Positions 1,547 through 23,053 of a stretch of DNA of 30,076 nucleotides are shown here, in pieces. The notes under the pieces were generated by a model, which saw nothing but the letters and a program-made list of their open reading frames with translations, had not been told where the DNA came from and searched no databases. The stretch lies in the UHGV virus genome UHGV-1385480, one strand, 5' to 3'. Both the position numbers and the translations under genes were made by a program. This DNA comes from a virus. The stretch's first letter is position 1; the number at the start of each line of letters is the position of its first letter.

Positions 1547-1582
1547 GCCCCTATCGTTATAATACGCGGTAGGGGCGTTTTT
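1547..1582 (+). terminator. intrinsic terminator
   Basis: GC-rich stem GCCCCTATCG / CGGTAGGGGC with a 10-nt loop, followed by TTTTTGTTT; directly downstream of the stop at 1530-1532. Confidence 0.55.
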
Positions 1583-1595
1583 GTTTGGAAATGGT

Positions 1596-3275
1596 ATGAA
1601 AACTAAACTGTATTCGTATATTCGCTTCTCGTCTATGCGTCAGAATGATGGTTCGAGTTATGAACGACAAATCAGGATGGCTAGAGAGATTGCGGTAAAG
1701 TATGACCTTGAACTGGTAAATGATTATCAGGATCTGGGTGTATCTGCGTTTAAGGGTGCTAACTCCAAAACAGGGGCGCTATCTCGTTTCCTTGATGCAA
1801 TAGGTAGATCCGTTCCTGTTGGTAGCTGGCTATTCATCGAAAACTTGGACCGTTTATCCCGTGCCGATATTGTCAGTGCACAGGAGTTATTCCTTTCAAT
1901 CATCCGTAGGGGGATAACCATTGTTACTGGCATGGATAACAAGATCTACTCGCTTGATACTGTTACCGCTAACCCGATGGACCTGATGTTCTCCATCCTT
2001 TTATTCATCCGTGGTAATGAGGAAAGCCAGACTAAGCGCAATCGTACTAACTCAAGCGCACTGATTAAGATTAAAGCTCATCAAGAAAATCCACAAAATC
2101 CGGCTGTTGCAATCGAGGAAATTGGAAAGAATATGTGGTGGACTGATACCACATCTGGTTATGTGCTTCCTCATCCGGTCTTCTTCCCTATTGTTCAGGA
2201 AGTTGTGGAATTACGCAGGAATGGACGGTCAACCGCCGAGATACTGGATCACCTTAACGCGACATACACACCACCACCAGCCGCAAGTCACAAGAGGCAT
2301 TCAAACTGGTCACGGGCAATGATTGAAAGGTTGTTCCATACCCGCGCTTTGATTGGTATCAAGGAAATCTCTGTAGATGGCGTTAAGTATGAGTTAAAGG
2401 ATTATTATCCTCGTGTGCTAGATGACGCTGAGTTTTATCACCTTAAGAAAAGCATTGGTGTTAGAGCATGTAACTTTGGAGACAAAGAAGAAGCTAAACC
2501 TATTCCCTTGCTTAGTGGTGTTGGTCTATTGAAATGTGAACATTGCGGTTCCGCTATGGTTAAGGTGAAAGGAACAAACAGACGGCCTAACCAATATCGT
2601 TATTCATGCGATGCAATGCGCTCTAGTCGTATTGAATGTGTGCATACAAACTGGAGTTTTCGCGGCGACCAATTAGAGAAAGCTGTATTGCAATTGCTGG
2701 CTGATAAAATCTGGATTGCTGAAGATAAGGCTAATCCGGTTCCGGCTTTGAAAGTACAGATTGATGAAATATCACGCAAGATTGATAACCTGATTACCCT
2801 TTCTGCTATGACAGGAGCAACGAAGGAGCTAGCCGATCAGATTACTACCCTCAATAGCGAGCGTGAAACACTCTACAATCAACTTAAGATGGCAGAAGAG
2901 GAAATGTATTCTGTTGACTCTCAAGGCTGGGAGAAGCTCGCAGAATTTGATTTAGAAGATGTTTACAACGAGGATCGCATTAAGGTCCGGTTTAAGATTA
3001 AGCAAGCTCTAAAACGGATCGGGTGTAGCAGGATTGACAAGTACAAAAACTTGTTTGTACTGGAATACATCGATGGCAAGACCCAGAGAGTTGTAATAGA
3101 AAATTCAAGAGGACCGAGGAAAGGCCGGATCTTCGTTGATTTGAAGACTATCAATGATAGGCAGATTCTGGAGAGTAACGGGCTTGTTCTGCATCCATGT
3201 TTAGACATGCTGACAGATAAGAACTGGAAACCAGAAGAAGAAATACCAGGTCCATTACAAGAATTTGGAATTTAA
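1596..3275 (+). CDS. large serine recombinase (integrase/resolvase-invertase superfamily with C-terminal zinc-ribbon and coiled-coil region)
   Basis: N-terminal resolvase-type catalytic region (YIRFSSMRQ; ENLDRLSR); C-terminal Cys cluster CEHCG...YSCDAMRSSRIEC typical of the recombinase zinc beta-ribbon; about 560 aa. The ORF track starts at a TTG (1581); the first in-frame ATG is 1596. Confidence 0.85.
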   Translation: MKTKLYSYIRFSSMRQNDGSSYERQIRMAREIAVKYDLELVNDYQDLGVSAFKGANSKTGALSRFLDAIGRSVPVGSWLFIENLDRLSRADIVSAQELFLSIIRRGITIVTGMDNKIYSLDTVTANPMDLMFSILLFIRGNEESQTKRNRTNSSALIKIKAHQENPQNPAVAIEEIGKNMWWTDTTSGYVLPHPVFFPIVQEVVELRRNGRSTAEILDHLNATYTPPPAASHKRHSNWSRAMIERLFHTRALIGIKEISVDGVKYELKDYYPRVLDDAEFYHLKKSIGVRACNFGDKEEAKPIPLLSGVGLLKCEHCGSAMVKVKGTNRRPNQYRYSCDAMRSSRIECVHTNWSFRGDQLEKAVLQLLADKIWIAEDKANPVPALKVQIDEISRKIDNLITLSAMTGATKELADQITTLNSERETLYNQLKMAEEEMYSVDSQGWEKLAEFDLEDVYNEDRIKVRFKIKQALKRIGCSRIDKYKNLFVLEYIDGKTQRVVIENSRGPRKGRIFVDLKTINDRQILESNGLVLHPCLDMLTDKNWKPEEEIPGPLQEFGI

Positions 3276-8800: not shown

Positions 8801-9592
8801 ACGTACTTTCAGGAATGAATCAACGTTGATGTTTTCAATTGGTACACTAAGACCATATTTTGTATTTGTCAGATAATGGAAAATCTGGTCCACGCCGTTA
8901 GTGCTAGCCTCAATAGCATTGGTTTCAAGGTTACGAATCTTTAACCCGCAAACGTCTACCGCTACCTGGCTATTTGGTTGGAGAATATCAACACCAGCAG
9001 CAAGAGATTTGTCATCACGACGCAACACAATACACATGGTCGCAATACCATTGCCTTTGTAGTTGTCGTTCCAGTCTGACCCTAAGTGACGTTTTGCCAG
9101 TGACAAAGCGGTGTTAGGATTCTTACCAGTGCGGAACTCAACCTCTAAAACTTTCCGGTATTCTTCTTTAATGTTGCCTTTGTCCAGTACACCATCACGG
9201 ATCGTCATGTTCTTACCAACAAGAACATTTTTGTTATCGATGAATAGTGCTTTGTAATGGTCGATTTCACCCTCTGCAATTGCGAAGATTTGCACTAACT
9301 TATTGTTTTCTTGCTTAGAAATTGCTTTGTAAACGCAGATTGCACCCGTGCGGGTAGTACCGAAAAGAACGGGTAATACTGTCTTCGGATCGTTTGATGT
9401 TCCTAGTGTCACCGCATTATCTGGGCTTTGTACTTTCGGTGTTTTTGGTGCGCCTACAGTGGAAGCGATCAAGGTCATTGCACCAGCAGCCATACCGATA
9501 GCGACTGCGGTCATAACAGAAAATGTTGCAGCAGCAGCCATCCCAGCAGACGCACCAGCAATAACCGCGCCTACCAATATTTCAAATCCCAT
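5816..9592 (-). CDS. central tail fibre / host specificity protein (lambda gpJ-like) with an N-terminal gpI-like segment fused in frame
   Basis: C-terminus ([11 protein letters not shown] ... [12 protein letters not shown] ... VMVTKK) resembles the recalled lambda gpJ C-terminus (HPFDRQIVVLP ... MPAGRGNVILTF ... VMVIKK); N-terminal ~90 aa (Gly/Ala-rich hydrophobic stretch, [14 protein letters not shown]) resembles the recalled C-terminal part of lambda gpI; ATG overlaps the upstream stop (TAATG). Confidence 0.85.
   Translation of the reverse strand: [1258 protein letters not shown]
6425..6600 (-). repeat. tandem ~21-nt (heptapeptide) repeats inside the central fibre gene
   Basis: Protein [48 protein letters not shown]; the DNA shows the matching periodic att-gc...atctt units. 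Confidence 0.5.
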
Positions 9593-13862: not shown

Positions 13863-14108
13863 TTATCCTTGAGTTTTAAAGAGTTTTTCTTCTCTAATTA
13901 ATTGGAATTGGCTAGGCTTGAGTTTCTTTGCAGTTTCACGAGTCATTCCTTGCGACGTCATATACATGGAATATTGCAACATCGCATTCTGCATATCATG
14001 AAACGCGGGGCTTTGTGGTTCTAAGTAGGTGTCGAAAATGTATAATTTCCAAAACAGAGTGATTGGCATATTATCCATTTCATCTTTACTAAGCCCCGAT
14101 CGCATCAT
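13863..14108 (-). CDS. tail assembly chaperone, T-like frame (probably expressed as a frameshift extension of the upstream chaperone)
   Basis: No SD before its ATG ATG; frame is -1 relative to the upstream ORF and is open from just inside that ORF's end; canonical G/GT position before the tape measure gene. Confidence 0.4.
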   Translation of the reverse strand: MMRSGLSKDEMDNMPITLFWKLYIFDTYLEPQSPAFHDMQNAMLQYSMYMTSQGMTRETAKKLKPSQFQLIREEKLFKTQG

Positions 14109-14488: not shown

Positions 14489-14995
14489 TTAAGAGATTTT
14501 CAAAGTCTGCTTAGTGCCAGTCTTCTTAATGTTGGTAAGGAAAGCAGCCGGAGGATTGCTTAACCAATAGTAATGAAAACCACTTTGCATACTGTTATAA
14601 GGAACAGTGACAGCAGCACCACCCAAATTAACGGTTATATTCCCCGCTCTACCGTTCTGGAGATATACAGCCATAGTAGGAGTACCGCCATTGAATTGAC
14701 CAACGATAACGCCAACCAGACGCCCTACGCCCACGTTTTCGGGGTTCTCCATAGATCCTTTGCTTTGCATACCGGAAACAGGATAGTTTGAAGCAGTTAC
14801 ACCCCAGTTATTACCCAATGAAGTAGACCACGATGCAGTAGCTACAACCGTATCCATACCACGACCAGCCATTGCCGACATATTACGCGGAGCCGGAACT
14901 TTTAAAGCTGTTAATGCTTCTTTCATCCATCGCTTACCCGTCACCGATACAGCAGATGACCCGATCCAGCCAGGAACTTTAACGACATTTGCCAT
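14489..14995 (-). CDS. hypothetical structural protein (168 aa), Gly/Ala/Ser-rich
   Basis: ATG 14995 with GGAG SD immediately after the tube terminator; no family recognised. Confidence 0.45.
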   Translation of the reverse strand: MANVVKVPGWIGSSAVSVTGKRWMKEALTALKVPAPRNMSAMAGRGMDTVVATASWSTSLGNNWGVTASNYPVSGMQSKGSMENPENVGVGRLVGVIVGQFNGGTPTMAVYLQNGRAGNITVNLGGAAVTVPYNSMQSGFHYYWLSNPPAAFLTNIKKTGTKQTLKIS

Positions 14996-15009
14996 TTTGA
15001 TTACTCCAA

Positions 15010-15038
15010 TAAAAAAGCCCCACCATTAAGGCAGGGCT
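15010..15038 (-). terminator. intrinsic terminator (copy A) after the tail tube gene
   Basis: Minus-strand RNA AGCCCUGCC-UUAAU-GGUGGGGCU followed by UUUUUU; near-identical to the terminator at 20879-20906. Confidence 0.7.
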
Positions 15039-15043
15039 TAAAA

Positions 15044-15169
15044 TTAATTCTTAGCCTTGCGGCCTCGTTTTGCTGTGGCTTTCGCCGTAACTTCTTCTAC
15101 TTCTGGAATCACCACCGCTTCATGTTCCGGCAGTGGTTCCGGTTCTGGTAAAGGAAGTTCTTCGTTAGT
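15044..15169 (-). other. in-frame 41-codon extension downstream of the tail tube TGA (candidate readthrough product)
   Basis: Directly after TGA-A: TNEELPLPEPEPLPEHEAVVIPEVEEVTAKATAKRGRKAKN then TAA; no ATG or SD of its own; homologous to the extension after the capsid gene. Confidence 0.4.
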
Positions 15170-15643
15170 TCATCCGGCAGTGAAGATTTGCTGTTTCAGC
15201 GGAGCACCATCAACAGCAAAGGTAAACTCTTTCGTTACCACTTCTTCATCGCCACCGTTCATAGCAACTTTAGAAATAAAGCCGTTGAAAGCAGTGCGAA
15301 TACCAGTCTGTTTTCCGGCGTCAACATAGTATTCAACTTTGATTTGAATACGCGTACCGTCTTCGGCAGCCTTTATGAGCTTCTCATGTACCGCATCACC
15401 AGGAATGTAGTTAACGGTCAGAGTCAGATCAGGAACGTTCAGTTTACCTACCAGTTTACGGTTATACTGAGAAGAGAAGGATTTAACTTCTACAGTACCG
15501 CGCTCGATACCAGTTTCAGGAAAACCAGCACACTCTTTAATTTCTTCGTATGCTTCATCGGCAAGGTCGGTGTTAGTGGTATCGGCGTGATAGAACAGAC
15601 TTACCAGACCACCAGTAAAAATATCTTTGAATTGCTGAGACAT
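15170..15643 (-). CDS. major tail (tube) protein, putative
   Basis: 157 aa; AAGGGGT SD; followed by a strong terminator, as expected for an abundant structural protein; upstream of the chaperone pair and tape measure gene; ends in TGA rather than the TAA used by other minus-strand genes. Confidence 0.5.
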   Translation of the reverse strand: MSQQFKDIFTGGLVSLFYHADTTNTDLADEAYEEIKECAGFPETGIERGTVEVKSFSSQYNRKLVGKLNVPDLTLTVNYIPGDAVHEKLIKAAEDGTRIQIKVEYYVDAGKQTGIRTAFNGFISKVAMNGGDEEVVTKEFTFAVDGAPLKQQIFTAG

Positions 15644-15699
15644 AGAATTACCCCTTAATTAAAATTGTTATTACGGGGGAACTAGTCCCCCGACTTTTA

Positions 15700-18600
15700 T
15701 TATTTAGTTGCTTTCAGTTCGGCAATTTCTTTCTGTAATGCTTCGATCTGTGCTTTATATTTGGCGTCCATTTCCTGCATAGCCTTGATGATTAAAGCAT
15801 TGACAGCAGAGTTAGAAATAGTCTTGATTGCTTCTGGATTTTCTGGATCTTCGGTGGATTGAATACCTACTGCTTCCGGCAATACTTTTTCCAGATCCTG
15901 AGCAATAATACCTACTTCGCGTTTAATCACCGTGTCATCGGAAAGAGATTTAACTTTATCGTAGGTGTAGACTTTCAGTGAGTTTACTTTCTCTAATGCA
16001 CCGTCCTGTAATTCTTCCTTGTTAATCTTCAAACGGGAGTCAGAGCGAATGTAAACATCGTTAAAGCTACCGTTACGACCTGCGGTAAAGTCACCAGCAG
16101 CGTTAAAGTCAAAGTTAGTATCGTTAACATGCAGACGAACAAGAGCGTTACCGATAGTACCGCTAGGAACGTGTACACCCATTGCTGCAATGTGATATTT
16201 ACCCCAATGAGTAGCTTTCCAGATGTTATGAGCGGAATCGGTTGATTGAGGGCAATCAACTTGCAAGCCGGATGCACGATCGCGCCAACTAGACCAGCTA
16301 CCACCAGAAACGTTACCACGAATCAAACCTTTATCAGATCCGCCGACGCTACCAGATTCAAGATGAATCATCTTATCCGCAAGTTTCCACGTCTGGGCTT
16401 GTTTCTGACCACGGAAGCGAATAACACCAGCATCATCAGAATACATCAAACCTAGTTCTAATCCAGTTGGATCTCTAAACCAGATATGCTTATTACCAGT
16501 GCGACGAAATTCAATATCAGCACCGTTAAGCGTGATATTACCGCCAGTGTGAATTGCTTGAGGCTTAACAGTACCGTTGATGGCAAACTCAATTGCCGTA
16601 GTACCCGGACCGCCCGGACGTTGGGTATACCAATGCCAACCACTTTCATCACCACATTCTAATACTTGTTTACGACTATCGTTACCCCAAGCACGAATAT
16701 TAAAGCTGGATGTAGCTGTATTTTTACCCCAAGTAAACTTACCACCAACTTCAAGATCGCCTAAGAAGTTTGCTTTAAGAGCACCAGTACCCATCGCACG
16801 CTCTGTGCTAAAATGTCTACCTTGACTATCTTCTAGGTACAAAACGTTATCACGGGCATTATTACTATCACCCCAATGATTAAATCGAATATAATCACGA
16901 GATCCGCTTCTCCCAGCAGAGAAGGTTAAAAACCCTTTCTCGATATATGTATCGCCAGCAAATCGAGCAGCACGGCTATCTCTTTCGAGAACTAATGCGC
17001 CTTCGTTACCATCACCACCTAAAGTAACTTTACCGTTAGTCAAATCGTAAATGAATGGTCGGTTTCCGTTCCAACCACCAAATCTATCATTTTCGGCAGT
17101 AGACAACAGATAAACTTTACCACCATCATTTCGCCAGAATGCACCATACTTACCGTAAATCATACGGAATGCATCAGCGTTAGCGGAATAATATTGACCA
17201 TTGGTATATACAATTTTTGTTTTTCCTGTAGTCAAATTTACTTGTCCACTACCTTCCAAATCAAATGAGTTAGCACCAACATCATTACGCCACACAAAAC
17301 CATCACTAGTACCATCCGCATGACCGATATAACCACTACGTTGGTTTTTACCATCACGACGATCCCACCACGCCATATATGCAGCTTGACCAGTCTGGCG
17401 ATGTAAAGTCATCGCATTACCACTACCGTGCAATTCCATTTTACCAGTAATTACATATCCTTTATAATTACCCGGTATTGCACTATTAGAATCAATTCTA
17501 ATAACTTCTGTAGAATCTGTAGCACCGGTAGCAAGACGATATACAGCACCCTGAACGGTTTCATGCCAAACCATTTCGTTATAGTTGCTACGGAATTTAC
17601 GAATATATTTCCGTCCAGTACCTTTATCGTTACTCAAGTGAACAATGTCATAGCTGTTTTGTGTGTTATCATCAAAACTTAACACACCACGTTTATTTTC
17701 AGTATTAAAAAGAGTTACGTTGCGACCACCGATAACACCAACGGAAGGTTTAATTAACGTGGCTTCCGGCGTATCATAAACCGTCAAACTTACATAAACA
17801 GATTTCCCATATTCGACAATAACGTTATCGGTATAACGCTGATATTTCACGTAGATATCATAGTTATCACCGGAAGTATTGACAGCAAATACCTCAAAAT
17901 CTTTGTTTGTATTTCTACGGTATGCAATTACGTTAAGACCTTTAGGTCTATCGTTACCACTACGCAGAAGAATTTCTACTACGTCAACCTGATCATATGC
18001 CGTAACGTTGTAACCATTACCACCATGAATACGGAAAAACACACTACGCCCGTTTTGTGGAATTGTTGCGGTTGCCAATTTGAAATATGCAGATACGTTT
18101 TCGCTAGAATTGGGAACAGACATAACGACGTTTTTAACAAACATCTTATCAACTTCGGCTTTGGTGTATGCGCCAATCTCGCCAGGAGTCGGCTTATCAC
18201 CTTCGTGATACATCTTATAGCTAAAGTTCTTCTGTCCTTCTCTATCAAAACCATAGGTTTCAACACGAGATCCACCAGACGCATAACGGAAAGTAAATCC
18301 GCGACCGTGCGCTTTACCGGCAGAATGAGGAACATTAAGAGTTAGATCCATGAGTCCATCTTGACCATTGGTACGGAAAGCACCAAAGTAGTTAAGATCT
18401 CTCGCTGTCTGGTCTTCCAAATAGTTAGCTGTCTTGCTTAACAGATACCCACCATGCTTAGTATTGGTATTCTTCTTGATGTAAGCAGCATCGGCACTAC
18501 CTTCAATAGAATCAATTCGCTGGTTAGCTGCGGCAATTGCGGCATCGGCACTGGCCTTGTTATTTGCAACAGTTCTTTCAATGGCTGTCTTATTCGCAGA

Positions 18601-19230
18601 GACCGTACTAGTAAGATTGGTGATCTTCGTGTCCGCATCTTTCTTATTATCCGCTACCGTCTTTTCTATTGCTGATTTATTTGCTGCGACAGTATTCGTT
18701 AAGTTGGTAACGTTGGTATTCGTCTGATCAACTCGCGCATTAATATCTGTCTTGTTCTTGTTAATTGTCGCGTTGATAGTATCGCGGGTTGAAGTAATAG
18801 TCTGATTCAGTTCAGTCTTAGCAGCCGCCAGAGCGTTAGCCGCTTCGGTTTTATTGTTACCTACTGTGGTAGTCAAAGCATCAATTCGCTTGTTGGCTGC
18901 GGTATCGCCAGCAGTGATTGAAGCATTGAGAGTATCACGGGTAGAAGTGATAGTCTGATTAAGTTCAGCTTTAGCCGTAGCCAGATTATTAGCGGCTTCG
19001 GTTTTATTTGCTGAAATGACTTTATCTGTGTTGACCTTGTTGGTGTCTACTTTCGTATTCAGTTCAGCGTGTTTTTCTGGAGAAACACTAATTTGGACTA
19101 CGTTATTATTTTTATCTTTGGTGTAAATCACATGGTCCGCCAGTTGTAAGGCGATCTCGCCCTGTGATAATTGTTCCGGCGTTGGTTTTTTACCAGCCGT
19201 TTGTGTGCGTTTAAATTGGATCGACTGCAT
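15700..19230 (-). CDS. tail fibre protein with C-terminal intramolecular chaperone (peptidase S74-like) domain
   Basis: 1176 aa; N-terminal repeated Asn/Thr/Ala-rich segments; C-terminal ~114 aa starting SDSRLKINKEEL... ending in a coiled coil, matching the self-cleaving chaperone domain of endosialidase / L-shaped fibre proteins. Confidence 0.8.
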   Translation of the reverse strand: MQSIQFKRTQTAGKKPTPEQLSQGEIALQLADHVIYTKDKNNNVVQISVSPEKHAELNTKVDTNKVNTDKVISANKTEAANNLATAKAELNQTITSTRDTLNASITAGDTAANKRIDALTTTVGNNKTEAANALAAAKTELNQTITSTRDTINATINKNKTDINARVDQTNTNVTNLTNTVAANKSAIEKTVADNKKDADTKITNLTSTVSANKTAIERTVANNKASADAAIAAANQRIDSIEGSADAAYIKKNTNTKHGGYLLSKTANYLEDQTARDLNYFGAFRTNGQDGLMDLTLNVPHSAGKAHGRGFTFRYASGGSRVETYGFDREGQKNFSYKMYHEGDKPTPGEIGAYTKAEVDKMFVKNVVMSVPNSSENVSAYFKLATATIPQNGRSVFFRIHGGNGYNVTAYDQVDVVEILLRSGNDRPKGLNVIAYRRNTNKDFEVFAVNTSGDNYDIYVKYQRYTDNVIVEYGKSVYVSLTVYDTPEATLIKPSVGVIGGRNVTLFNTENKRGVLSFDDNTQNSYDIVHLSNDKGTGRKYIRKFRSNYNEMVWHETVQGAVYRLATGATDSTEVIRIDSNSAIPGNYKGYVITGKMELHGSGNAMTLHRQTGQAAYMAWWDRRDGKNQRSGYIGHADGTSDGFVWRNDVGANSFDLEGSGQVNLTTGKTKIVYTNGQYYSANADAFRMIYGKYGAFWRNDGGKVYLLSTAENDRFGGWNGNRPFIYDLTNGKVTLGGDGNEGALVLERDSRAARFAGDTYIEKGFLTFSAGRSGSRDYIRFNHWGDSNNARDNVLYLEDSQGRHFSTERAMGTGALKANFLGDLEVGGKFTWGKNTATSSFNIRAWGNDSRKQVLECGDESGWHWYTQRPGGPGTTAIEFAINGTVKPQAIHTGGNITLNGADIEFRRTGNKHIWFRDPTGLELGLMYSDDAGVIRFRGQKQAQTWKLADKMIHLESGSVGGSDKGLIRGNVSGGSWSSWRDRASGLQVDCPQSTDSAHNIWKATHWGKYHIAAMGVHVPSGTIGNALVRLHVNDTNFDFNAAGDFTAGRNGSFNDVYIRSDSRLKINKEELQDGALEKVNSLKVYTYDKVKSLSDDTVIKREVGIIAQDLEKVLPEAVGIQSTEDPENPEAIKTISNSAVNALIIKAMQEMDAKYKAQIEALQKEIAELKATK
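18540..19010 (-). repeat. imperfect tandem repeats in the tail fibre N-terminal shaft
   Basis: Protein repeats NKTEAAN(N/A)LA(T/A)AK(A/T)ELNQTITSTRDT and TNLT(N/S)TV(A/S)ANK(S/T)AIE(K/R)TVA; the underlying DNA blocks are visibly similar. Confidence 0.5.
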
Positions 19231-19309: not shown

Positions 19310-20143
19310 TTAGTATTCGCCGAAATCGATCCGGTCAGTCTTAGCCACTGCGCCAATTTCGCTAGGTGTCGGTTTCTCATTGGTGGAATATACCTTGATC
19401 CATTCAGAGCGACCGTTTTCCTGAATATTTCGGACGCGTAAACGTGGTGCGCCAGAAGTATTACAGGTTAATTGCCATGCGCCATGCTCATTAGCTTGAA
19501 GGTGAATTAATGATGTGTCGGCTGAATATGGATTACCGCTAGCAGTTCCCTTGTAAGTTACGAAACGGTTTCCGGCTAAAGCATCACTATCAATCGGACC
19601 TGTGAATGGATGTACACCTGCACCTACGCCATAATCCCCGCGACGGAGAAGACGACCCTCCGTTGCAATACCGCGATCCAAAATCCCGCCATCTGGTTCA
19701 AGTTTAAATTCCAGTGTTACAGCTTTGTTATCACTACCACGGGTTTTGTGTGATGTGACGTAAGCATCATAGATGACATAGTAACCAGTGTTAGCAGCAC
19801 TATAGCCAGAGTTCACAACATAGAACATACGGAAGCGTAAAGGTGTTTTATCCTCTACCGCTTTCATCAACATTGCTTGATGTTCGTCATCCAGAACACG
19901 GTTTAACGTGAGTGTTGTCGGTTCCAGTCTACGATAACCAGCAAGTTTCCCCGTAGCGTCCTGATCGTACTCTTCCAGAGTTTCTATCTCTGTGGATTCG
20001 GTTAGCGTAGGAAATGCTGCAACGTTCTCGATGGAACTAAAGCTAGGATCGAAAAAGTCGACCTGATTGTCTATCTGGTTAGAGATCGACACTTCAACAT
20101 GTGACCCCGTGAAAATATCTAAGTTATCTTGTGTAATATTCAT
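19310..20143 (-). CDS. structural protein (277 aa), likely tail fibre-associated
   Basis: C-terminus contains EKPTPSEIGAVAKT, a motif shared with two sites in the adjacent tail fibre; AAGGGGT SD. Confidence 0.4.
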   Translation of the reverse strand: MNITQDNLDIFTGSHVEVSISNQIDNQVDFFDPSFSSIENVAAFPTLTESTEIETLEEYDQDATGKLAGYRRLEPTTLTLNRVLDDEHQAMLMKAVEDKTPLRFRMFYVVNSGYSAANTGYYVIYDAYVTSHKTRGSDNKAVTLEFKLEPDGGILDRGIATEGRLLRRGDYGVGAGVHPFTGPIDSDALAGNRFVTYKGTASGNPYSADTSLIHLQANEHGAWQLTCNTSGAPRLRVRNIQENGRSEWIKVYSTNEKPTPSEIGAVAKTDRIDFGEY

Positions 20144-20878: not shown

Positions 20879-20906
20879 CAAAAAAGCCCCACCGTTAGGC
20901 AGGGCT
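20879..20906 (-). terminator. intrinsic terminator (copy B) after the capsid gene
   Basis: Minus-strand RNA AGCCCUGCC-UAAC-GGUGGGGCU followed by UUUUUU. Confidence 0.7.
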
Positions 20907-20911
20907 AATTA

Positions 20912-21040
20912 TTATTCTTTAGTTTTACGCTGTTTTTTAGCTGTGGCTTTCGCCTTAACCGTCTGGGATTCTTCTTCCGGTTCAGGAATCAGATTTTCTT
21001 CCCCCAAATCGGGGGAAGGTTCAGATGGTTCTACAGGAGT
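20912..21040 (-). other. in-frame 42-codon extension downstream of the capsid TGA (candidate readthrough product)
   Basis: Directly after TGA-A: TPVEPSEPSPDLGEENLIPEPEEESQTVKAKATAKKQRKTKE then TAA; no independent start. Confidence 0.4.
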
Positions 21041-23053
21041 TCATTCAGCGGAGATGTGAAGAACTTTCAGAGCTTCCGGCTGTGCTACAACGTAGTCCAA
21101 ATCTACAAAGATACGAGGCACTACCGCACCACGATCACGGTATGTAGTTAGATCCATATCCAGTTCCAGACCGCCCCACTCACCGATAGTAATACCGGAG
21201 AAGTCACCCAGAACGATGTGGTCTGCCGGAATAACGCCAGAAGTAACTACTTCGTAACCAGCCAGTTTGCCGTTTTCGATGATATAACCGGAAACGCCGT
21301 TATCTTTCAGGGTAGATTCCAGTTCAGCAGCAGTTGCACCGCTCATCGCAAACTTGATCGCCTGAGCAGGAACGCCAGCGTCAGTCAGTGCTGCAATTTC
21401 TTTCAGGAAGTCTTTATAAGAGAAAGCAGCTTTCTTGGTAACGCGGCTAGCGTCTACCAGTTGCTTAACCAGACCAGCCGGACCACGAGCATTTTCTTTA
21501 TCAGACAGAATCAGTTGTTCCAGTTTGATCCGAACAGATTTGTTAATGTGATCGGTGATCAGGGTAGCGATGCCCGGAACGGTTTTCAGCGACTGACGGC
21601 TGATCGGGTTGCCACCAGCAAAAGTTTTCGGAGACAGTTTCACGTTCGAAAATTCCGCATGTGACTCGGGGGCAGCGCCATTTTCGTCAACGAATCCGAA
21701 AGCGTCAACGCTGGATTTAGTCATTTTTGGAATAGCGGTCGGAGAAGTCAAGCCACTATAAACAGTCACCCCGAGGCGGCCTAAAACACTCTGAGGCAAC
21801 AGCATTTCGATGTAGGATTCAGTCATCAGTTTTTCGTCAGTGATAGCAACCAGATTAGCTTTGGTGTTGCCATCAGCAGCAGCACGCATAGCAGCAGCCG
21901 GAACGAATACAGAGCCACCACGAGCAGCACGACCACGCTGCATAGTTGCAGTAGCAGCCATTGCGGAATATTCAGCTTCGTTAGCGCCGAGCACGTCGCC
22001 ATCTACCAGGGAGCGGATTACGTTATTAAGATCGAAAGTTTTTTCCATGATTTGTTCCTTATTAATTTGTTCGTTATTACGTTGAGCATTGGTAATGTTA
22101 TTTAGTGCCTTAGTGCGGAATGCTTCCGGCGTAATTTCTTTATTTGCCAATGCGCGTTTAAATTCTTCATCGTCTTCGTTAATATTTAACTCGCGTGCAA
22201 TTTCGCGAATTTCTAATTCGTCTTCTTCGGAACGTTCAGCCACTTCCTCGGTTTTTTCTTCTTCAACCGGAGCAGCTTCACGTTCTTCTTTTACTTCTTC
22301 TGTTTCCCGAACAGTTGAACTATCATCATCAACACTTTCAGGATGTTCAGCGTCTTTTCCGTCTTCGAGATTTTCATCTTCTTTATTCTCTTCAACTTGG
22401 CGCTCTTGAGTTTCTTCAACTTCCGGTTCTTTATTTTCTTCTACCGGAGTTTCTTCAACCTGAGCGGATTCTTGTTCTTCTTTGATTTCTTCAATTTGTT
22501 CTTTAGTCATATCGCGTTTAGCCTCCAAATTAACTGTGATAGTATTTAGAGAGCGATTTAAACCGACCGAATCGTCCGCCGGGACCGTAACAAAACTTAA
22601 TTCGAAAGGAACAAACTTAGTAACAATCAATTGTCCTTTGGCATAATCGATGTGATATTCTTTAATGTCATAACCGACAGAAATTTTTTCCATCGTACCT
22701 TCAATGACTTTATTACGAATATCATTAGCCAAAGTGCCATGCTTAGAGAATCTAACGGTCGCACGGCCTACTTTATCCGCATCGATTCGAGCGTTACAAA
22801 CGACACCTAAATGATTATCGAAATTATGATTAAACAGCAACGGAGCGTTATTATTCAGACGAGACAGATCAACCGCTTCCGGTGTATGTACCAGAATTTC
22901 ATCTAATACCACCATTTCTTGATTTTGCTCATCCCAGAATTGGCGCTGATAAGGCTGTTCACTGGAGAAAGCAATTTCAAATTCGTATTGATCGTTATGC
23001 CCTTCGTTAATAACTCCACCGTAACCGTTAAGTTCGCGGCGAAATTTAAGCAT
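21041..23053 (-). CDS. prohead protease - acidic scaffold-like linker - HK97-fold major capsid protein, single fused ORF
   Basis: N-terminal ~170 aa with LFNHN...LG and ELSFVTVPADDSVGL motifs typical of HK97-type prohead proteases; ~160 aa Glu-rich low-complexity middle; C-terminal 335 aa with capsid-like composition; ends in TGA. Confidence 0.75.
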   Translation of the reverse strand: MLKFRRELNGYGGVINEGHNDQYEFEIAFSSEQPYQRQFWDEQNQEMVVLDEILVHTPEAVDLSRLNNNAPLLFNHNFDNHLGVVCNARIDADKVGRATVRFSKHGTLANDIRNKVIEGTMEKISVGYDIKEYHIDYAKGQLIVTKFVPFELSFVTVPADDSVGLNRSLNTITVNLEAKRDMTKEQIEEIKEEQESAQVEETPVEENKEPEVEETQERQVEENKEDENLEDGKDAEHPESVDDDSSTVRETEEVKEEREAAPVEEEKTEEVAERSEEDELEIREIARELNINEDDEEFKRALANKEITPEAFRTKALNNITNAQRNNEQINKEQIMEKTFDLNNVIRSLVDGDVLGANEAEYSAMAATATMQRGRAARGGSVFVPAAAMRAAADGNTKANLVAITDEKLMTESYIEMLLPQSVLGRLGVTVYSGLTSPTAIPKMTKSSVDAFGFVDENGAAPESHAEFSNVKLSPKTFAGGNPISRQSLKTVPGIATLITDHINKSVRIKLEQLILSDKENARGPAGLVKQLVDASRVTKKAAFSYKDFLKEIAALTDAGVPAQAIKFAMSGATAAELESTLKDNGVSGYIIENGKLAGYEVVTSGVIPADHIVLGDFSGITIGEWGGLELDMDLTTYRDRGAVVPRIFVDLDYVVAQPEALKVLHISAE

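What the first reader, a model, noticed from the sequence alone, without database searches (positions are those of the whole stretch)
20879..21043. Major capsid gene carries the same TGA-A readthrough extension
The protease-scaffold-capsid ORF also ends in TGA followed by A. A 42-codon in-frame extension follows (TPVEPSEPSPDLGEENLIPEPEEESQTVKAKATAKKQRKTKE), then TAA and a terminator. Every other minus-strand gene I checked in this window ends in TAA; only the capsid and tube genes use TGA. The arrangement parallels coat-protein readthrough in RNA phages and the frameshifted minor capsid forms of some dsDNA phages.
Basis: partly seen in the sequence, partly recalled or inferred. Interest (0 to 1): 0.85.

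Follow-up and report, generated by a model that had tools for sequence, protein, structure and literature searches.

The report
Leaky-stop tail on prophage capsid protein
An E. coli prophage ends its capsid gene, and also its tail-tube gene, with a weak TGA stop followed by a conserved in-frame 28-45 codon tail, which most likely gives a few percent of these virion proteins a flexible acidic stalk tipped with a basic peptide; this way of making a minor capsid form was not found described for tailed DNA phages.

Summary
The 670-aa protease-scaffold-capsid ORF (21044-23053, minus strand) ends ...HISAE TGA-A. It is followed by 42 open in-frame codons, TAA TAA and a strong terminator. One open frame of this length is not significant on its own (p about 0.1).

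Comparison with relatives makes the case. Every extension-bearing copy examined (window, isolate prophages, metagenomes) keeps TGA-A. The frame is open in every haplotype, while both other frames are closed. All indels inside the extension are multiples of 3, whereas those in the terminator loop are 1-2 nt. The tail keeps an acidic, proline-rich linker (net -4 to -9) and a basic tip (net +5 to +6), even though its sequence is replaced between variants.

The same cassette follows the tail-tube gene and a second capsid lineage that is only 38% identical. Alleles without an extension end in TAA.

A structured RNA begins 10 nt after the UGA in all three cassette classes, and UGAACU is also the Qbeta readthrough hexanucleotide.

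Best reading: programmed UGA readthrough that makes minor, C-terminally extended capsid and tube proteins. There is no protein-level evidence, and the function of the tail is unknown. It is a new variant of a known kind.

The parts
21044..23053 (-). Prohead protease - scaffold - HK97-type major capsid fusion ORF (670 aa), ending ...LKVLHISAE
   Evidence: Pfam Peptidase_S78 at 40-162, Phage_capsid at 414-666. The closest solved sequence is major capsid protein 8gta.
21040..21043 (-). Leaky stop tetranucleotide TGA-A. The hexanucleotide is TGAACT, the same as at the Qbeta coat readthrough site.
   Evidence: It is invariant in 34 capsid loci (window, isolate prophages and E. coli CE0007a), in 4 second-lineage loci, 4 more loci and 13 metagenome hits where the stop codon was left unspecified in the search pattern. 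The Qbeta context comes from PMC13517186.
20960..21040 (-). First 27 codons of the extension: an acidic, proline-rich linker, TPVEPSEPSPDLGEENLIPEPEEESQT (net charge -9, 22% Pro)
   Evidence: Length variants differ only by multiples of 3 nt.
20915..20959 (-). Last 15 codons of the extension: a basic tail, VKAKATAKKQRKTKE (net +6). Relatives carry alternative tails (KKERKTKAK, KKVGRPPKAK, KRGRKPKE), all with net +5 to +6.
   Evidence: The GRP-containing variants give a sub-threshold Pfam AT_hook match.
20957..21030 (-). Predicted structured RNA domain. Its closing helix, AACC/GGUU, starts at +14 from the U of the UGA (a 10-nt spacer). It contains the 8-bp hairpin CUUCCCCC-GAUUU-GGGGGAAG (21018-20998).
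   Evidence: z = -3.0 to -4.5 against dinucleotide shuffles. A helix starts at the same +14 position in the short capsid cassette and in the tube cassette.
20940..20959 (-). Nearly invariant 20-nt core GTTA(C/A)GGCGAAAGCCACAGC, shared by the capsid and tube cassettes. It contains the mini-hairpin GGC-GAAA-GCC (20954-20945).
   Evidence: (only two copies in the window).
20909..20914 (-). Tandem in-frame stops TAA TAA that end the extension
   Evidence: Tandem TAA TAA also ends six ordinary genes of this operon.
20880..20906 (-). Intrinsic terminator AGCCCTGCC-TAAC-GGTGGGGCT plus a T-run
15173..15643 (-). Tail tube protein ORF (157 aa), ending ...IFTAG
   Evidence: weak Pfam match to the lambda-like tail tube family; phrog_158 major tail protein. 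The AF2 model matches the lambda gpV tube domain.
15044..15172 (-). Paralogous cassette after the tube gene: TGA-A (15172-15169), then a 41-codon extension TNEELPLPEPEPLPEHEAVVIPEVEEVTAKATAKRGRKAKN (15169-15047), then TAA (15046-15044) and a second in-frame TAA one codon later (15040-15038). The structured domain lies at 15159-15089.
   Evidence: TGA-A in 39 of 39 tube loci.
15009..15039 (-). Near-identical intrinsic terminator after the tube cassette

Best explanation
The 3' end of the capsid gene carries a programmed-readthrough cassette.

Most ribosomes terminate at UGA and make the normal capsid protein. A minority decode UGA, by inference with Trp-tRNA(Trp), which competes with RF2. These ribosomes continue for 42 codons and stop at TAA TAA just before the terminator. 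The fraction is probably a few percent, by analogy with E. coli reporters and with Qbeta.

The product is a capsid subunit with an intrinsically disordered C-terminal appendage: an acidic, proline-rich stalk of about 27 residues tipped by a basic peptide of about 15 residues (net +6). A paralogous cassette does the same for the tail tube protein. A virion would therefore carry roughly 10-20 extended capsid subunits and 5-10 extended tube subunits, if the capsid is T=7 and the tube has about 180 copies. These copy numbers are inferred, not measured.

The leak is probably set by the +4 A (context UGAACU) and possibly raised by a structured RNA that starts 10 nt after the stop.

By analogy with T7 10B and with the C-terminal Ig-like domain of lambda gpV, both tails should lie on the outside of the particle. 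The most likely role is weak electrostatic binding to a polyanion such as LPS or capsule, DNA or mucus. That functional step is speculative.

Shown here: the anatomy, its conservation, maintenance of the reading frame, the strict link between TGA and the extension, the predicted disorder of the tail, and the lambda-like tube fold. Inferred: actual readthrough and its level, the inserted amino acid, the role of the RNA structure, surface exposure, and function.
For: 1. TGA-A is invariant in every extension-bearing copy: 34 capsid and 39 tube loci, 4 loci of a capsid lineage only 38% identical, 4 further loci, and 13 of 13 metagenome hits found with the stop codon left unspecified. The flanking sense codons do vary.

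2. Alleles without an extension end in TAA. Tube alleles at 73% and 58% identity in the same prophage family end TAA TAA plus a terminator. All 16 loci examined from the clade of capsids about 40% identical end in TAA. The other late genes of the window end in TAA, with one TAG.

3. Frame 0 is open in 19 of 19 capsid and 15 of 15 tube haplotypes. Frames 1 and 2 are closed in all of them.

4. In a nucleotide-only alignment, indels within the extension are 48, 3, 6 and 3 nt (capsid) and 6 and 9 nt (tube). L161 lacks a further 9 codons. Indels in the adjacent terminator loop are 1 and 2 nt.

5. The protein architecture is conserved across replaced sequences. The linker has net charge -4 to -9 and 15-28% Pro, and the tail has net +5 to +6, in all 9 variants.

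6. The extension ends in tandem in-frame stops.

7. Relatives encode short basic C-terminal tails constitutively. Capsid examples are ...GTPAEAKAAKQ and ...GEAEAGETRKAK. Tube examples are ...ARK and ...GRK, and Edwardsiella has ...VIPEAVAAKEK.

8. Context and expected level: Qbeta uses UGAACU at 3-5% readthrough (PMC13517186). E. coli K-12 UGA readthrough is about 2-4%, through Trp-tRNATrp competing with RF2 (PMC10570021).

9. RNA: a helix starts at +14 in all three cassette classes, and folds are more stable than shuffles (z = -3.0 to -5.1). There are a few compensatory pairs.

10. The AF2 model of the tube readthrough product has a confident core, with residues 159-198 below pLDDT 50 and without secondary structure. 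The core matches the lambda gpV tube domain, so the extension starts where the external Ig-like domain of gpV is attached.
Against: There is no direct evidence that the extended protein exists.

Selection on the amino acids is weak. pN/pS is 0.75 in the capsid extension and 0.39 in the tube extension, against 0.27 and 0.13 in the last 100 codons of the ORFs. The 20-nt core is conserved even at synonymous sites, which suggests that RNA-level constraints also act.

The cassettes are homologous and recombine, so the many TGA observations amount to few independent origins.

The tube extension is missing from some alleles, so it is dispensable.

One open frame of this length has about 10% probability by chance.

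Natural E. coli isolates are thought to terminate at UGA more efficiently than K-12 (from memory, not checked here). The readthrough level could therefore be well under 1%.

Covariation support for the RNA structure is modest. The inner tube helix is only 87.5% paired, and the both-sided changes trace back to very few events.
Confidence: 0.72

Rival explanations
1. The 126 nt are an untranslated, structured 3' UTR. It could be an mRNA-stabilising element, an RNase processing site or a 3'UTR-derived small RNA ending at the terminator. It would be shared by the two most highly expressed late genes. On this view the open frame and the TGA are incidental.
For: Folds are significantly more stable than shuffles. 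Three hairpins have GNRA tetraloops, and a 20-nt core is invariant at synonymous positions in both paralogs. Some compensatory changes alter amino acids, for example in L033. pN/pS is high. A strong terminator follows immediately.
Against: This reading does not explain several observations. Every indel inside the region is a multiple of 3, while those in the terminator loop are not. Only frame 0 is open, in all 34 haplotypes. The acidic-then-basic charge pattern survives replacement of the sequence. TGA co-occurs strictly with the region, and TAA with its absence. Tandem stops close the frame. There is no Rfam match and no antisense target in the window. An RNA structure is also compatible with readthrough, and is expected for stimulated readthrough.
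Confidence: 0.14
2. Readthrough occurs, but the peptide is irrelevant. What is selected is the passage of a set fraction of ribosomes up to the stop, which lies 2-5 nt before the terminator stem. This would tune terminator efficiency or mRNA stability, and so the ratio of capsid or tube protein to the products of downstream genes.
For: The extension stop lies 2-5 nt from the terminator stem in all variants. Amino-acid constraint is weak. Both cassettes sit on the two best minus-strand terminator-like sites in the 10-kb stretch scanned.
Against: Tube alleles without an extension also place their primary stop next to a terminator, so this geometry is generic in this phage. The conserved charge architecture and the constant +5 to +6 tail would be unnecessary. 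Relatives carry constitutive basic tails.
Confidence: 0.08
3. UGA encodes selenocysteine, directed by a SECIS-like hairpin downstream.
For: A hairpin lies 10 nt after the UGA, and E. coli has the Sec machinery (established knowledge).
Against: The hairpin loops differ between cassette classes (GAUUU, GAAA, and a 10-nt loop) and lack a conserved SelB-binding apical loop. There is no Rfam hit. Selenocysteine has no plausible role in a disordered tail.
Confidence: 0.01
4. The extension is a separate small gene translated from its own start codon, or the open frame is a chance feature of an intergenic region.
For: One open frame of this length has p about 0.1. In-frame TTG and GTG codons exist inside some variants.
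Against: No conserved start codon or Shine-Dalgarno sequence is shared by the three cassette classes; this was judged by eye from the sequences. Conservation of frame with the upstream ORF across a swap to a capsid lineage only 38% identical and the comparative evidence above exclude chance.
Confidence: 0.03

Closest known systems
Qbeta (Fiersviridae) A1 readthrough protein
   Same: The coat gene ends in a leaky UGA with the same hexanucleotide, UGAACU. A few percent of ribosomes (3-5% in E. coli) read through, giving a C-terminally extended minor coat protein that is built into the virion (PMC13517186).
   Different: Qbeta is an ssRNA phage whose extension is a folded domain of about 196 aa required for infection (from memory). 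Here the phage is a tailed dsDNA prophage and the extension is a predicted disordered tail of 28-45 aa. The cassette is duplicated on the tube gene and followed by a terminator. Incorporation into the virion and essentiality are untested.
Frameshift-derived long forms of major capsid and major tail proteins: T7 10A/10B, T3, Lactobacillus A2, and Listeria A118/A500/PSA (Cps and Tsh)
   Same: Recoding at the 3' end of the gene yields a minor, C-terminally extended structural protein. In the Listeria phages both the capsid gene and the major tail gene are recoded, as here (PMC5009743).
   Different: Those cases use -1 or +1 frameshifting at slippery sites, and several add Ig-like domains. Here the extension is in frame behind a UGA, has no slippery site, and is not a folded domain. 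The same cassette is shared by the two genes.
Ig-like or FN3 accessory domains on phage structural proteins, such as the C-terminal domain of lambda gpV
   Same: The extension is attached at the C-terminus of a lambda-like tube domain (Foldseek match to gpV) and of an HK97-fold capsid protein. These are the positions where dispensable, surface-exposed accessory domains sit (established knowledge).
   Different: gpV carries its domain on every subunit and the domain is folded. Here only a minority of subunits would carry a short disordered polyampholyte.
UGA readthrough stimulated by an extended 3' stem-loop (alphaviruses VEEV and SINV, Colorado tick fever virus)
   Same: A UGA is followed by a structured element that begins +12 to +16 from the stop (PMC13517186). 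Here a helix begins at +14 in all three cassette classes.
   Different: Those are eukaryotic ribosomes and UGA-C contexts. No RNA-structure-stimulated readthrough (other than SECIS) was found described for bacteria in the searches made. A stimulatory role here is untested.
AT-hook / HMGA-type basic DNA-binding motif
   Same: Some tails read KKVGRPPKAK or KKAGRPPKAKE, a GRP core flanked by Lys. An acidic stretch lies next to the basic part, as in HMGA and CarD (from memory).
   Different: The Pfam AT_hook score is below threshold (14.2-14.7 bits against 17.4). The window's own tail (KKQRKTKE) has no GRP core.

Membership tests
Programmed stop-codon readthrough (Qbeta A1 type) | Leaky stop codon (UGA) in a favourable 3' context | tested here: met
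   TGA-A is present in every extension-bearing copy examined. UGAACU is identical to the Qbeta site.
Programmed stop-codon readthrough (Qbeta A1 type) | Downstream in-frame ORF maintained by selection | tested here: met
   Frame 0 is open in all haplotypes and the other frames are closed. All indels are multiples of 3. The charge pattern is conserved. pN/pS is only weakly below 1.
Programmed stop-codon readthrough (Qbeta A1 type) | Extended protein made at a set low ratio and incorporated into virions | not testable with these tools
   Needs mass spectrometry, Western blotting or ribosome profiling of an induced lysogen.
Recoding-derived long forms of dsDNA-phage capsid and tail proteins (T7 10B, A2, Listeria PSA/A118) | Alternative C-terminally extended product encoded at the 3' end of the major capsid and/or major tail gene | tested here: met
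   Both the capsid and the tube genes carry the cassette. This holds at the coding-potential level only.
Recoding-derived long forms of dsDNA-phage capsid and tail proteins (T7 10B, A2, Listeria PSA/A118) | Ribosomal frameshift at a slippery sequence into the -1 or +1 frame | tested here: not met
   The extension is in frame 0, and frames 1 and 2 are closed. It works like this family but by a different recoding event.
Structure-stimulated readthrough (alphavirus/coltivirus type) | Stable RNA structure starting about 8-16 nt after the stop and conserved in relatives | tested here: inconclusive
   A helix starts at +14 in three cassette classes, with z = -3.0 to -5.1. Covariation is limited to 2-3 pairs per class, and the inner tube helix is imperfect.
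Structure-stimulated readthrough (alphavirus/coltivirus type) | Structure required for efficient readthrough | not testable with these tools
   Needs reporter assays with stem-disrupting and compensatory mutants.
AT-hook DNA-binding motif (PF02178) | Match to the family profile above the curated threshold | tested here: not met
   E = 0.027-0.039 and 14.2-14.7 bits against a cutoff of 17.4, and only for the GRPP tail variants. The window's own tail gives no hit.
Bacterial SECIS / selenocysteine insertion | Conserved SelB-binding apical stem-loop downstream of UGA | tested here: not met
   The loops differ between classes, and no Rfam family reaches its threshold.
Stop-codon reassignment (TGA as a sense codon, code 4-like phage) | In-frame TGA codons inside many genes, often with a suppressor tRNA | tested here: not met
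   Long ORFs are intact under table 11. TGA occurs only at these two gene ends. No tRNA gene is present in the window.
HK97-fold major capsid protein fused to an S78 prohead protease | Peptidase_S78 and Phage_capsid domains in one ORF | tested here: met
   Homologues are annotated as major capsid protein.
Lambda-like tail tube protein | Tube fold comparable to the gpV N-terminal domain | tested here: met
   The AF2 core is confident. The best Foldseek hits are lambda gpV structures 7t2e, 8k36 and others, with probability 1.00. phrog_158 also matches.

The most novel reading that the evidence does not exclude
The element is a mobile 'readthrough cassette': UGAACU, a 10-nt spacer, a variable stem-loop, the GGC-GAAA-GCC core, a basic-tail coding segment, tandem stops and a terminator. 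It has been copied between the capsid and tube genes and moved onto an unrelated capsid allele. Its RNA structure actively raises UGA readthrough on bacterial ribosomes. That would be the first cis-RNA-stimulated readthrough in bacteria outside selenocysteine insertion. It would set the dose of an AT-hook-like, polyanion-binding peptide displayed on the head and tail of the virion.
Probability: 0.3. Interest if true: 0.85.

Novelty: new variant of a known kind. Interest (0 to 1): 0.7.

Why it matters
Minor, recoded forms of capsid and tail proteins are known in a handful of tailed phages, always through frameshifting. Coat-protein readthrough is the textbook case in RNA phages. This locus would join the two: UGA readthrough in a tailed dsDNA prophage, on both the capsid and the tube genes, using a shared and exchangeable cassette.

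The prophage is present in about 1% of complete E. coli genomes (55 of 5,426). The extension is not annotated in the RefSeq record examined, and no capsid homologue found in the protein database is long enough to include it.

If the RNA structure proves stimulatory, it would give an experimentally easy E. coli system for structure-dependent readthrough.

It also shows that gene-end annotation can miss real virion components. In addition, the tail offers a natural site for low-copy peptide display.

Tried and rejected
- Megablast and blastn of the capsid region or of the cassette against 50,697 phage records found nothing. The nearest cultured phage, DCP80, is only 43-44% identical and has no in-frame extension.
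- The first genome-contig scan found nothing. The second found only a Mangrovibacter relative at 32% identity that ends in TAA.
- Searches for a third copy of the cassette in the window found none. The cassette core searched across viral contigs gave, outside this prophage family, only chance matches.
- I looked for natural variants with a sense codon in place of the TGA. The only 'fused' protein, P0121, is a gene call that read TGA as sense; its DNA has TGA. No fused capsid was found (a search of limited sensitivity).
- A suppressor tRNA, a known RNA family and SECIS were all negative.
- pN/pS gave only weak support for coding, and the single-sequence open-frame test is not significant.
- AT-hook membership is below threshold.
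- Four literature searches and four papers searched for key terms gave no report of readthrough in a dsDNA phage capsid or tail gene. The library does not cover most subscription journals.
Full report
**1. The observation**

On the minus strand, the 670-aa ORF at 21041-23053 combines a Peptidase_S78 prohead protease domain (residues 40-162) with a Phage_capsid domain (414-666). Then come TAA TAA (20914-20909) and a 9-bp GC-rich hairpin with a T-run (20906-20880).

Among the plausible genes of the late operon, all others end in TAA, except one that ends in TAG. Six of them end in tandem TAA TAA. The tail tube gene (15170-15643) ends TGA-A in the same way. It has a 41-codon in-frame extension, a TAA, a second in-frame TAA one codon later, and a near-identical terminator.

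On its own, however, an open frame of this length after a stop has a probability of about 0.10 (0.15 for the tube) in dinucleotide shuffles.

**2. Where the window comes from**

The window is an E. coli/Shigella prophage. Fifty-five of 5,426 complete E. coli genomes carry the capsid region at 80-96% identity. In strain CE0007a the prophage sits next to a hicB gene that RefSeq marks as truncated. RefSeq annotates the capsid up to the TGA and leaves the next 190 nt empty.

No record among 50,697 phage genomes resembles it at the DNA level. The best protein match is 43% identical (Escherichia phage DCP80).

**3. Comparative evidence that the extension is translated**

I collected relatives from viral contigs, metagenomes and assemblies.

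(a) *The stop codon.* In 34 of 34 capsid loci and 39 of 39 tube loci the stop is TGA followed by A. The same holds in 13 of 13 metagenome hits retrieved with a pattern that left the stop codon unspecified. Meanwhile the last sense codons vary (HISAE, LHISE, KIGEE, QIGAE, HISAD and others).

(b) *The reading frame.* Frame 0 is free of stops in all 19 capsid and 15 tube haplotypes. Frames 1 and 2 contain stops in every one.

(c) *Indels.* In a nucleotide-only MAFFT alignment, the indels inside the extension are 48, 3, 6 and 3 nt (capsid) and 6 and 9 nt (tube). L161 lacks a further 9 codons. The indels in the terminator loop just downstream are 1 and 2 nt. This internal control is what coding sequence predicts and what an untranslated RNA does not.

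(d) *Architecture.* The peptide keeps its architecture while its sequence is replaced. Linkers of 11-27 residues have net charge -4 to -9 and 15-28% proline. Tails of 15-18 residues have net +5 to +6. The tail endings are interchangeable: KKQRKTKE, KKERKTKAK, KKVGRPPKAK, KKAGRPPKAKE, KRGRKAKN, KRSRKAKD and KRGRKPKE.

(e) *A second capsid lineage.* A capsid lineage only 38% identical to the window's, found in the same prophage family, carries the same TGA-A cassette in frame.

(f) *TGA tracks the extension.* Tube alleles at 73% and 58% identity have no extension. They end TAA TAA directly before a different terminator, while the capsid gene in the same genomes keeps TGA-A plus the extension. 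Capsids of the clade about 40% identical all end in TAA.

(g) *Constitutive tails in relatives.* Some of those capsids end constitutively in short Ala/Lys-rich tails such as ...GTPAEAKAAKQ...GTPAEAPAEAKAGK and ...GEAEAGETRKAK. Many Salmonella and Providencia tube homologues end in ...ARK or ...GRK, and the Edwardsiella homologue ends in ...VIPEAVAAKEK. A basic C-terminal tip is thus a recurrent protein feature of both families.

*Weak points.* pN/pS is 0.75 in the capsid extension and 0.39 in the tube extension, against 0.27 and 0.13 in the last 100 codons of the ORFs. The cassettes are homologous and recombine, so the number of independent origins is small.

**4. RNA features**

The capsid and tube cassettes share a nearly invariant 20-nt core, GTTA(C/A)GGCGAAAGCCACAGC. 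It is conserved even at synonymous positions and contains a GGC-GAAA-GCC mini-hairpin.

In all three cassette classes (capsid long, capsid short, tube) a helix starts at position +14, counting the U of the UGA as +1. This leaves a 10-nt spacer. The helix closes just before the core, although the enclosed sequences differ. The short class, for example, has an 11-bp hairpin with a GAAA loop. The folds are more stable than dinucleotide shuffles, with z = -3.0 to -5.1.

Covariation is limited but present. The tube has pairs 17-81 and 18-80 changing from UA to AU. The short capsid class has pair 17-36 changing from UA to CG, and a tail hairpin changing from UA to CG. Paired cells are 92% and 99% against 16-50% for slid controls. 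The inner tube helix is imperfect at 87.5% paired.

The spacing resembles the extended stem-loops that stimulate UGA readthrough in alphaviruses and coltiviruses, which begin at +12 to +16 (PMC13517186). I regard a stimulatory role as plausible but unproven. The same structures are also the main support for the rival reading of a structured 3' UTR.

**5. Mechanism**

The hexanucleotide UGAACU is the one at the Qbeta coat readthrough site, which is read through at 3-5% in E. coli. E. coli K-12 reads UGA through at about 2% at 37 C and about 4% at 25 C, by competition between Trp-tRNATrp and RF2 (PMC10570021).

The window has no suppressor tRNA, no Rfam family hit and no sign of code reassignment. 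The hairpin loops are not conserved, as a SECIS would require.

The most economical mechanism is therefore near-cognate decoding of UGA by tRNATrp. This would give ...HISAE-W-TPVEPSE... at a few percent of capsid subunits, and the equivalent product for the tube.

**6. Where the tail would sit, and what it might do**

An AlphaFold2 model of the tube readthrough product used the sequence of P0121, a metagenome gene call that happened to read the TGA as Trp. The model has a confident tube core. Residues 159-198 have pLDDT below 50 and no secondary structure.

The core matches the lambda gpV tube domain (7t2e, 8k36 and others). The extension therefore begins where gpV carries its external Ig-like domain.

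For HK97-fold capsid proteins the C-terminus is external in T7 10B, P22 and encapsulins. This is established knowledge and was not tested here.

The tail is a disordered polyampholyte. The GRP-containing variants give only a sub-threshold AT_hook match.

My best guess is a low-copy, surface-displayed electrostatic adhesion peptide that binds LPS or capsule, DNA or mucus. It would be functionally analogous to the accessory Ig-like domains that other phages add by frameshifting (PMC5009743). Confidence in this functional step is low, about 0.3.

**7. Comparison with what is known**

Frameshift-derived long forms of the major capsid protein (T3/T7, A2, A118, A500, PSA) and of the major tail protein (A118, A500, PSA) are established. 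So is coat readthrough in Qbeta.

I found no report of stop-codon readthrough in a capsid or tail gene of a tailed dsDNA phage. The caveat is that the searchable library is incomplete.

The locus works like those systems but fails the defining feature of the frameshift family, since it has no slippery site or frame change. It differs from Qbeta in virus type, in the nature of the extension and in its duplication on two genes. I therefore classify it as a new variant of a known kind.

**8. Verdict**

Confidence is about 0.72 that the extension is translated by selected readthrough. The main rival is an untranslated structured 3' UTR (about 0.14).

Interest is 0.7. The case is well supported, easy to test in E. 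coli, and would extend programmed readthrough to tailed phages. It may also provide a bacterial example of structure-assisted readthrough.

Noticed in passing
L154, L155, L158, L171 (viral contigs) and L001 7760-7890 (Escherichia phage DCP80): These capsid genes, about 40% identical to the window's, end in TAA. Their -1 frame stays open past the stop for 13-40 codons and ends in a basic tail just before the terminator (for example ...SLRKAKAKAETAE, ...PAKVKKPRALKVK, ...APVKKSKSASG). Each has an in-phase -1 slippery motif a few codons before the stop (A_AAA_AAG, A_AAA_AAA, A_AAG or A_AAA). Several have a strong hairpin just after it, with a compensatory difference between L154 and L158. These are candidate programmed -1 frameshifts that would make the same kind of tail.
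   Followed up: partly
L200-L203, tube genes at 9001-9471: Alternative tube alleles (73% and 58% identical) in the same prophage family lack the extension. They end TAA TAA followed by a different terminator, while the capsid gene in the same genomes keeps the TGA-A cassette. The tube tail is therefore dispensable and allele-specific.
   Followed up: yes
window 13863-13865 (minus strand): An in-frame TAA interrupts the ORF downstream of the tail-assembly-chaperone gene, giving ...FKTQG*LEELARKKEEERKAATLSMFDPSLLEKLRSAQTG. The homologous ORF in E. coli CE0007a is uninterrupted (...FKTKEELEEIARKK...). This is either a nonsense mutation, which might make this copy of the prophage tail-defective, or a sequencing error. 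A TAA-C context is not a likely readthrough site.
   Followed up: partly
window 14489-19230: The gene order is unusual. The tube gene (15170-15643) sits between a T4 gp37-like long tail fibre gene (15700-19230, 1176 aa, phrog_1699) and a gp38-like adhesin gene (14489-14995, Pfam Gp38_N).
   Followed up: no
window 19310-20143: A 277-aa protein also matches the major-tail-protein family phrog_158 over its first 154 residues. It is a second, longer tube-like paralogue upstream of the fibre gene, possibly a specialised ring or a fibre attachment site.
   Followed up: no
L199 41-637 (ENA metagenome contig), protein P0121: A public metagenome gene call fused the tube ORF and its extension into one 198-aa protein by reading the TGA as Trp. 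The DNA has TGA. This is an example of gene callers switching genetic code on short contigs.
   Followed up: yes
L001 (PQ671644.1, Escherichia phage DCP80): The record is classified as Straboviridae/Tevenvirinae and is 141 kb long. Its first 17 kb nevertheless encode a siphophage-like module: terminase, portal, protease-capsid fusion and a lambda-like tube. This suggests a misclassified or chimeric record.
   Followed up: no
Proteins P0131-P0152 (tube homologues from Salmonella, Providencia and Edwardsiella): Many end constitutively in short tails of 5-7 residues finishing in ARK, GRK, SRK or RSK. The Edwardsiella tarda homologue (175 aa) ends ...TYHMNVIPEAVAAKEK, which resembles the VIPE...AKATAK part of the readthrough tail.
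   Followed up: partly
L057 7534-7842 (E. coli CE0007a): In this genome the prophage lies next to a hicB antitoxin gene that RefSeq annotates as truncated, which suggests integration into hicB. A large serine recombinase lies at the other end (window 1581-3275).
   Followed up: no
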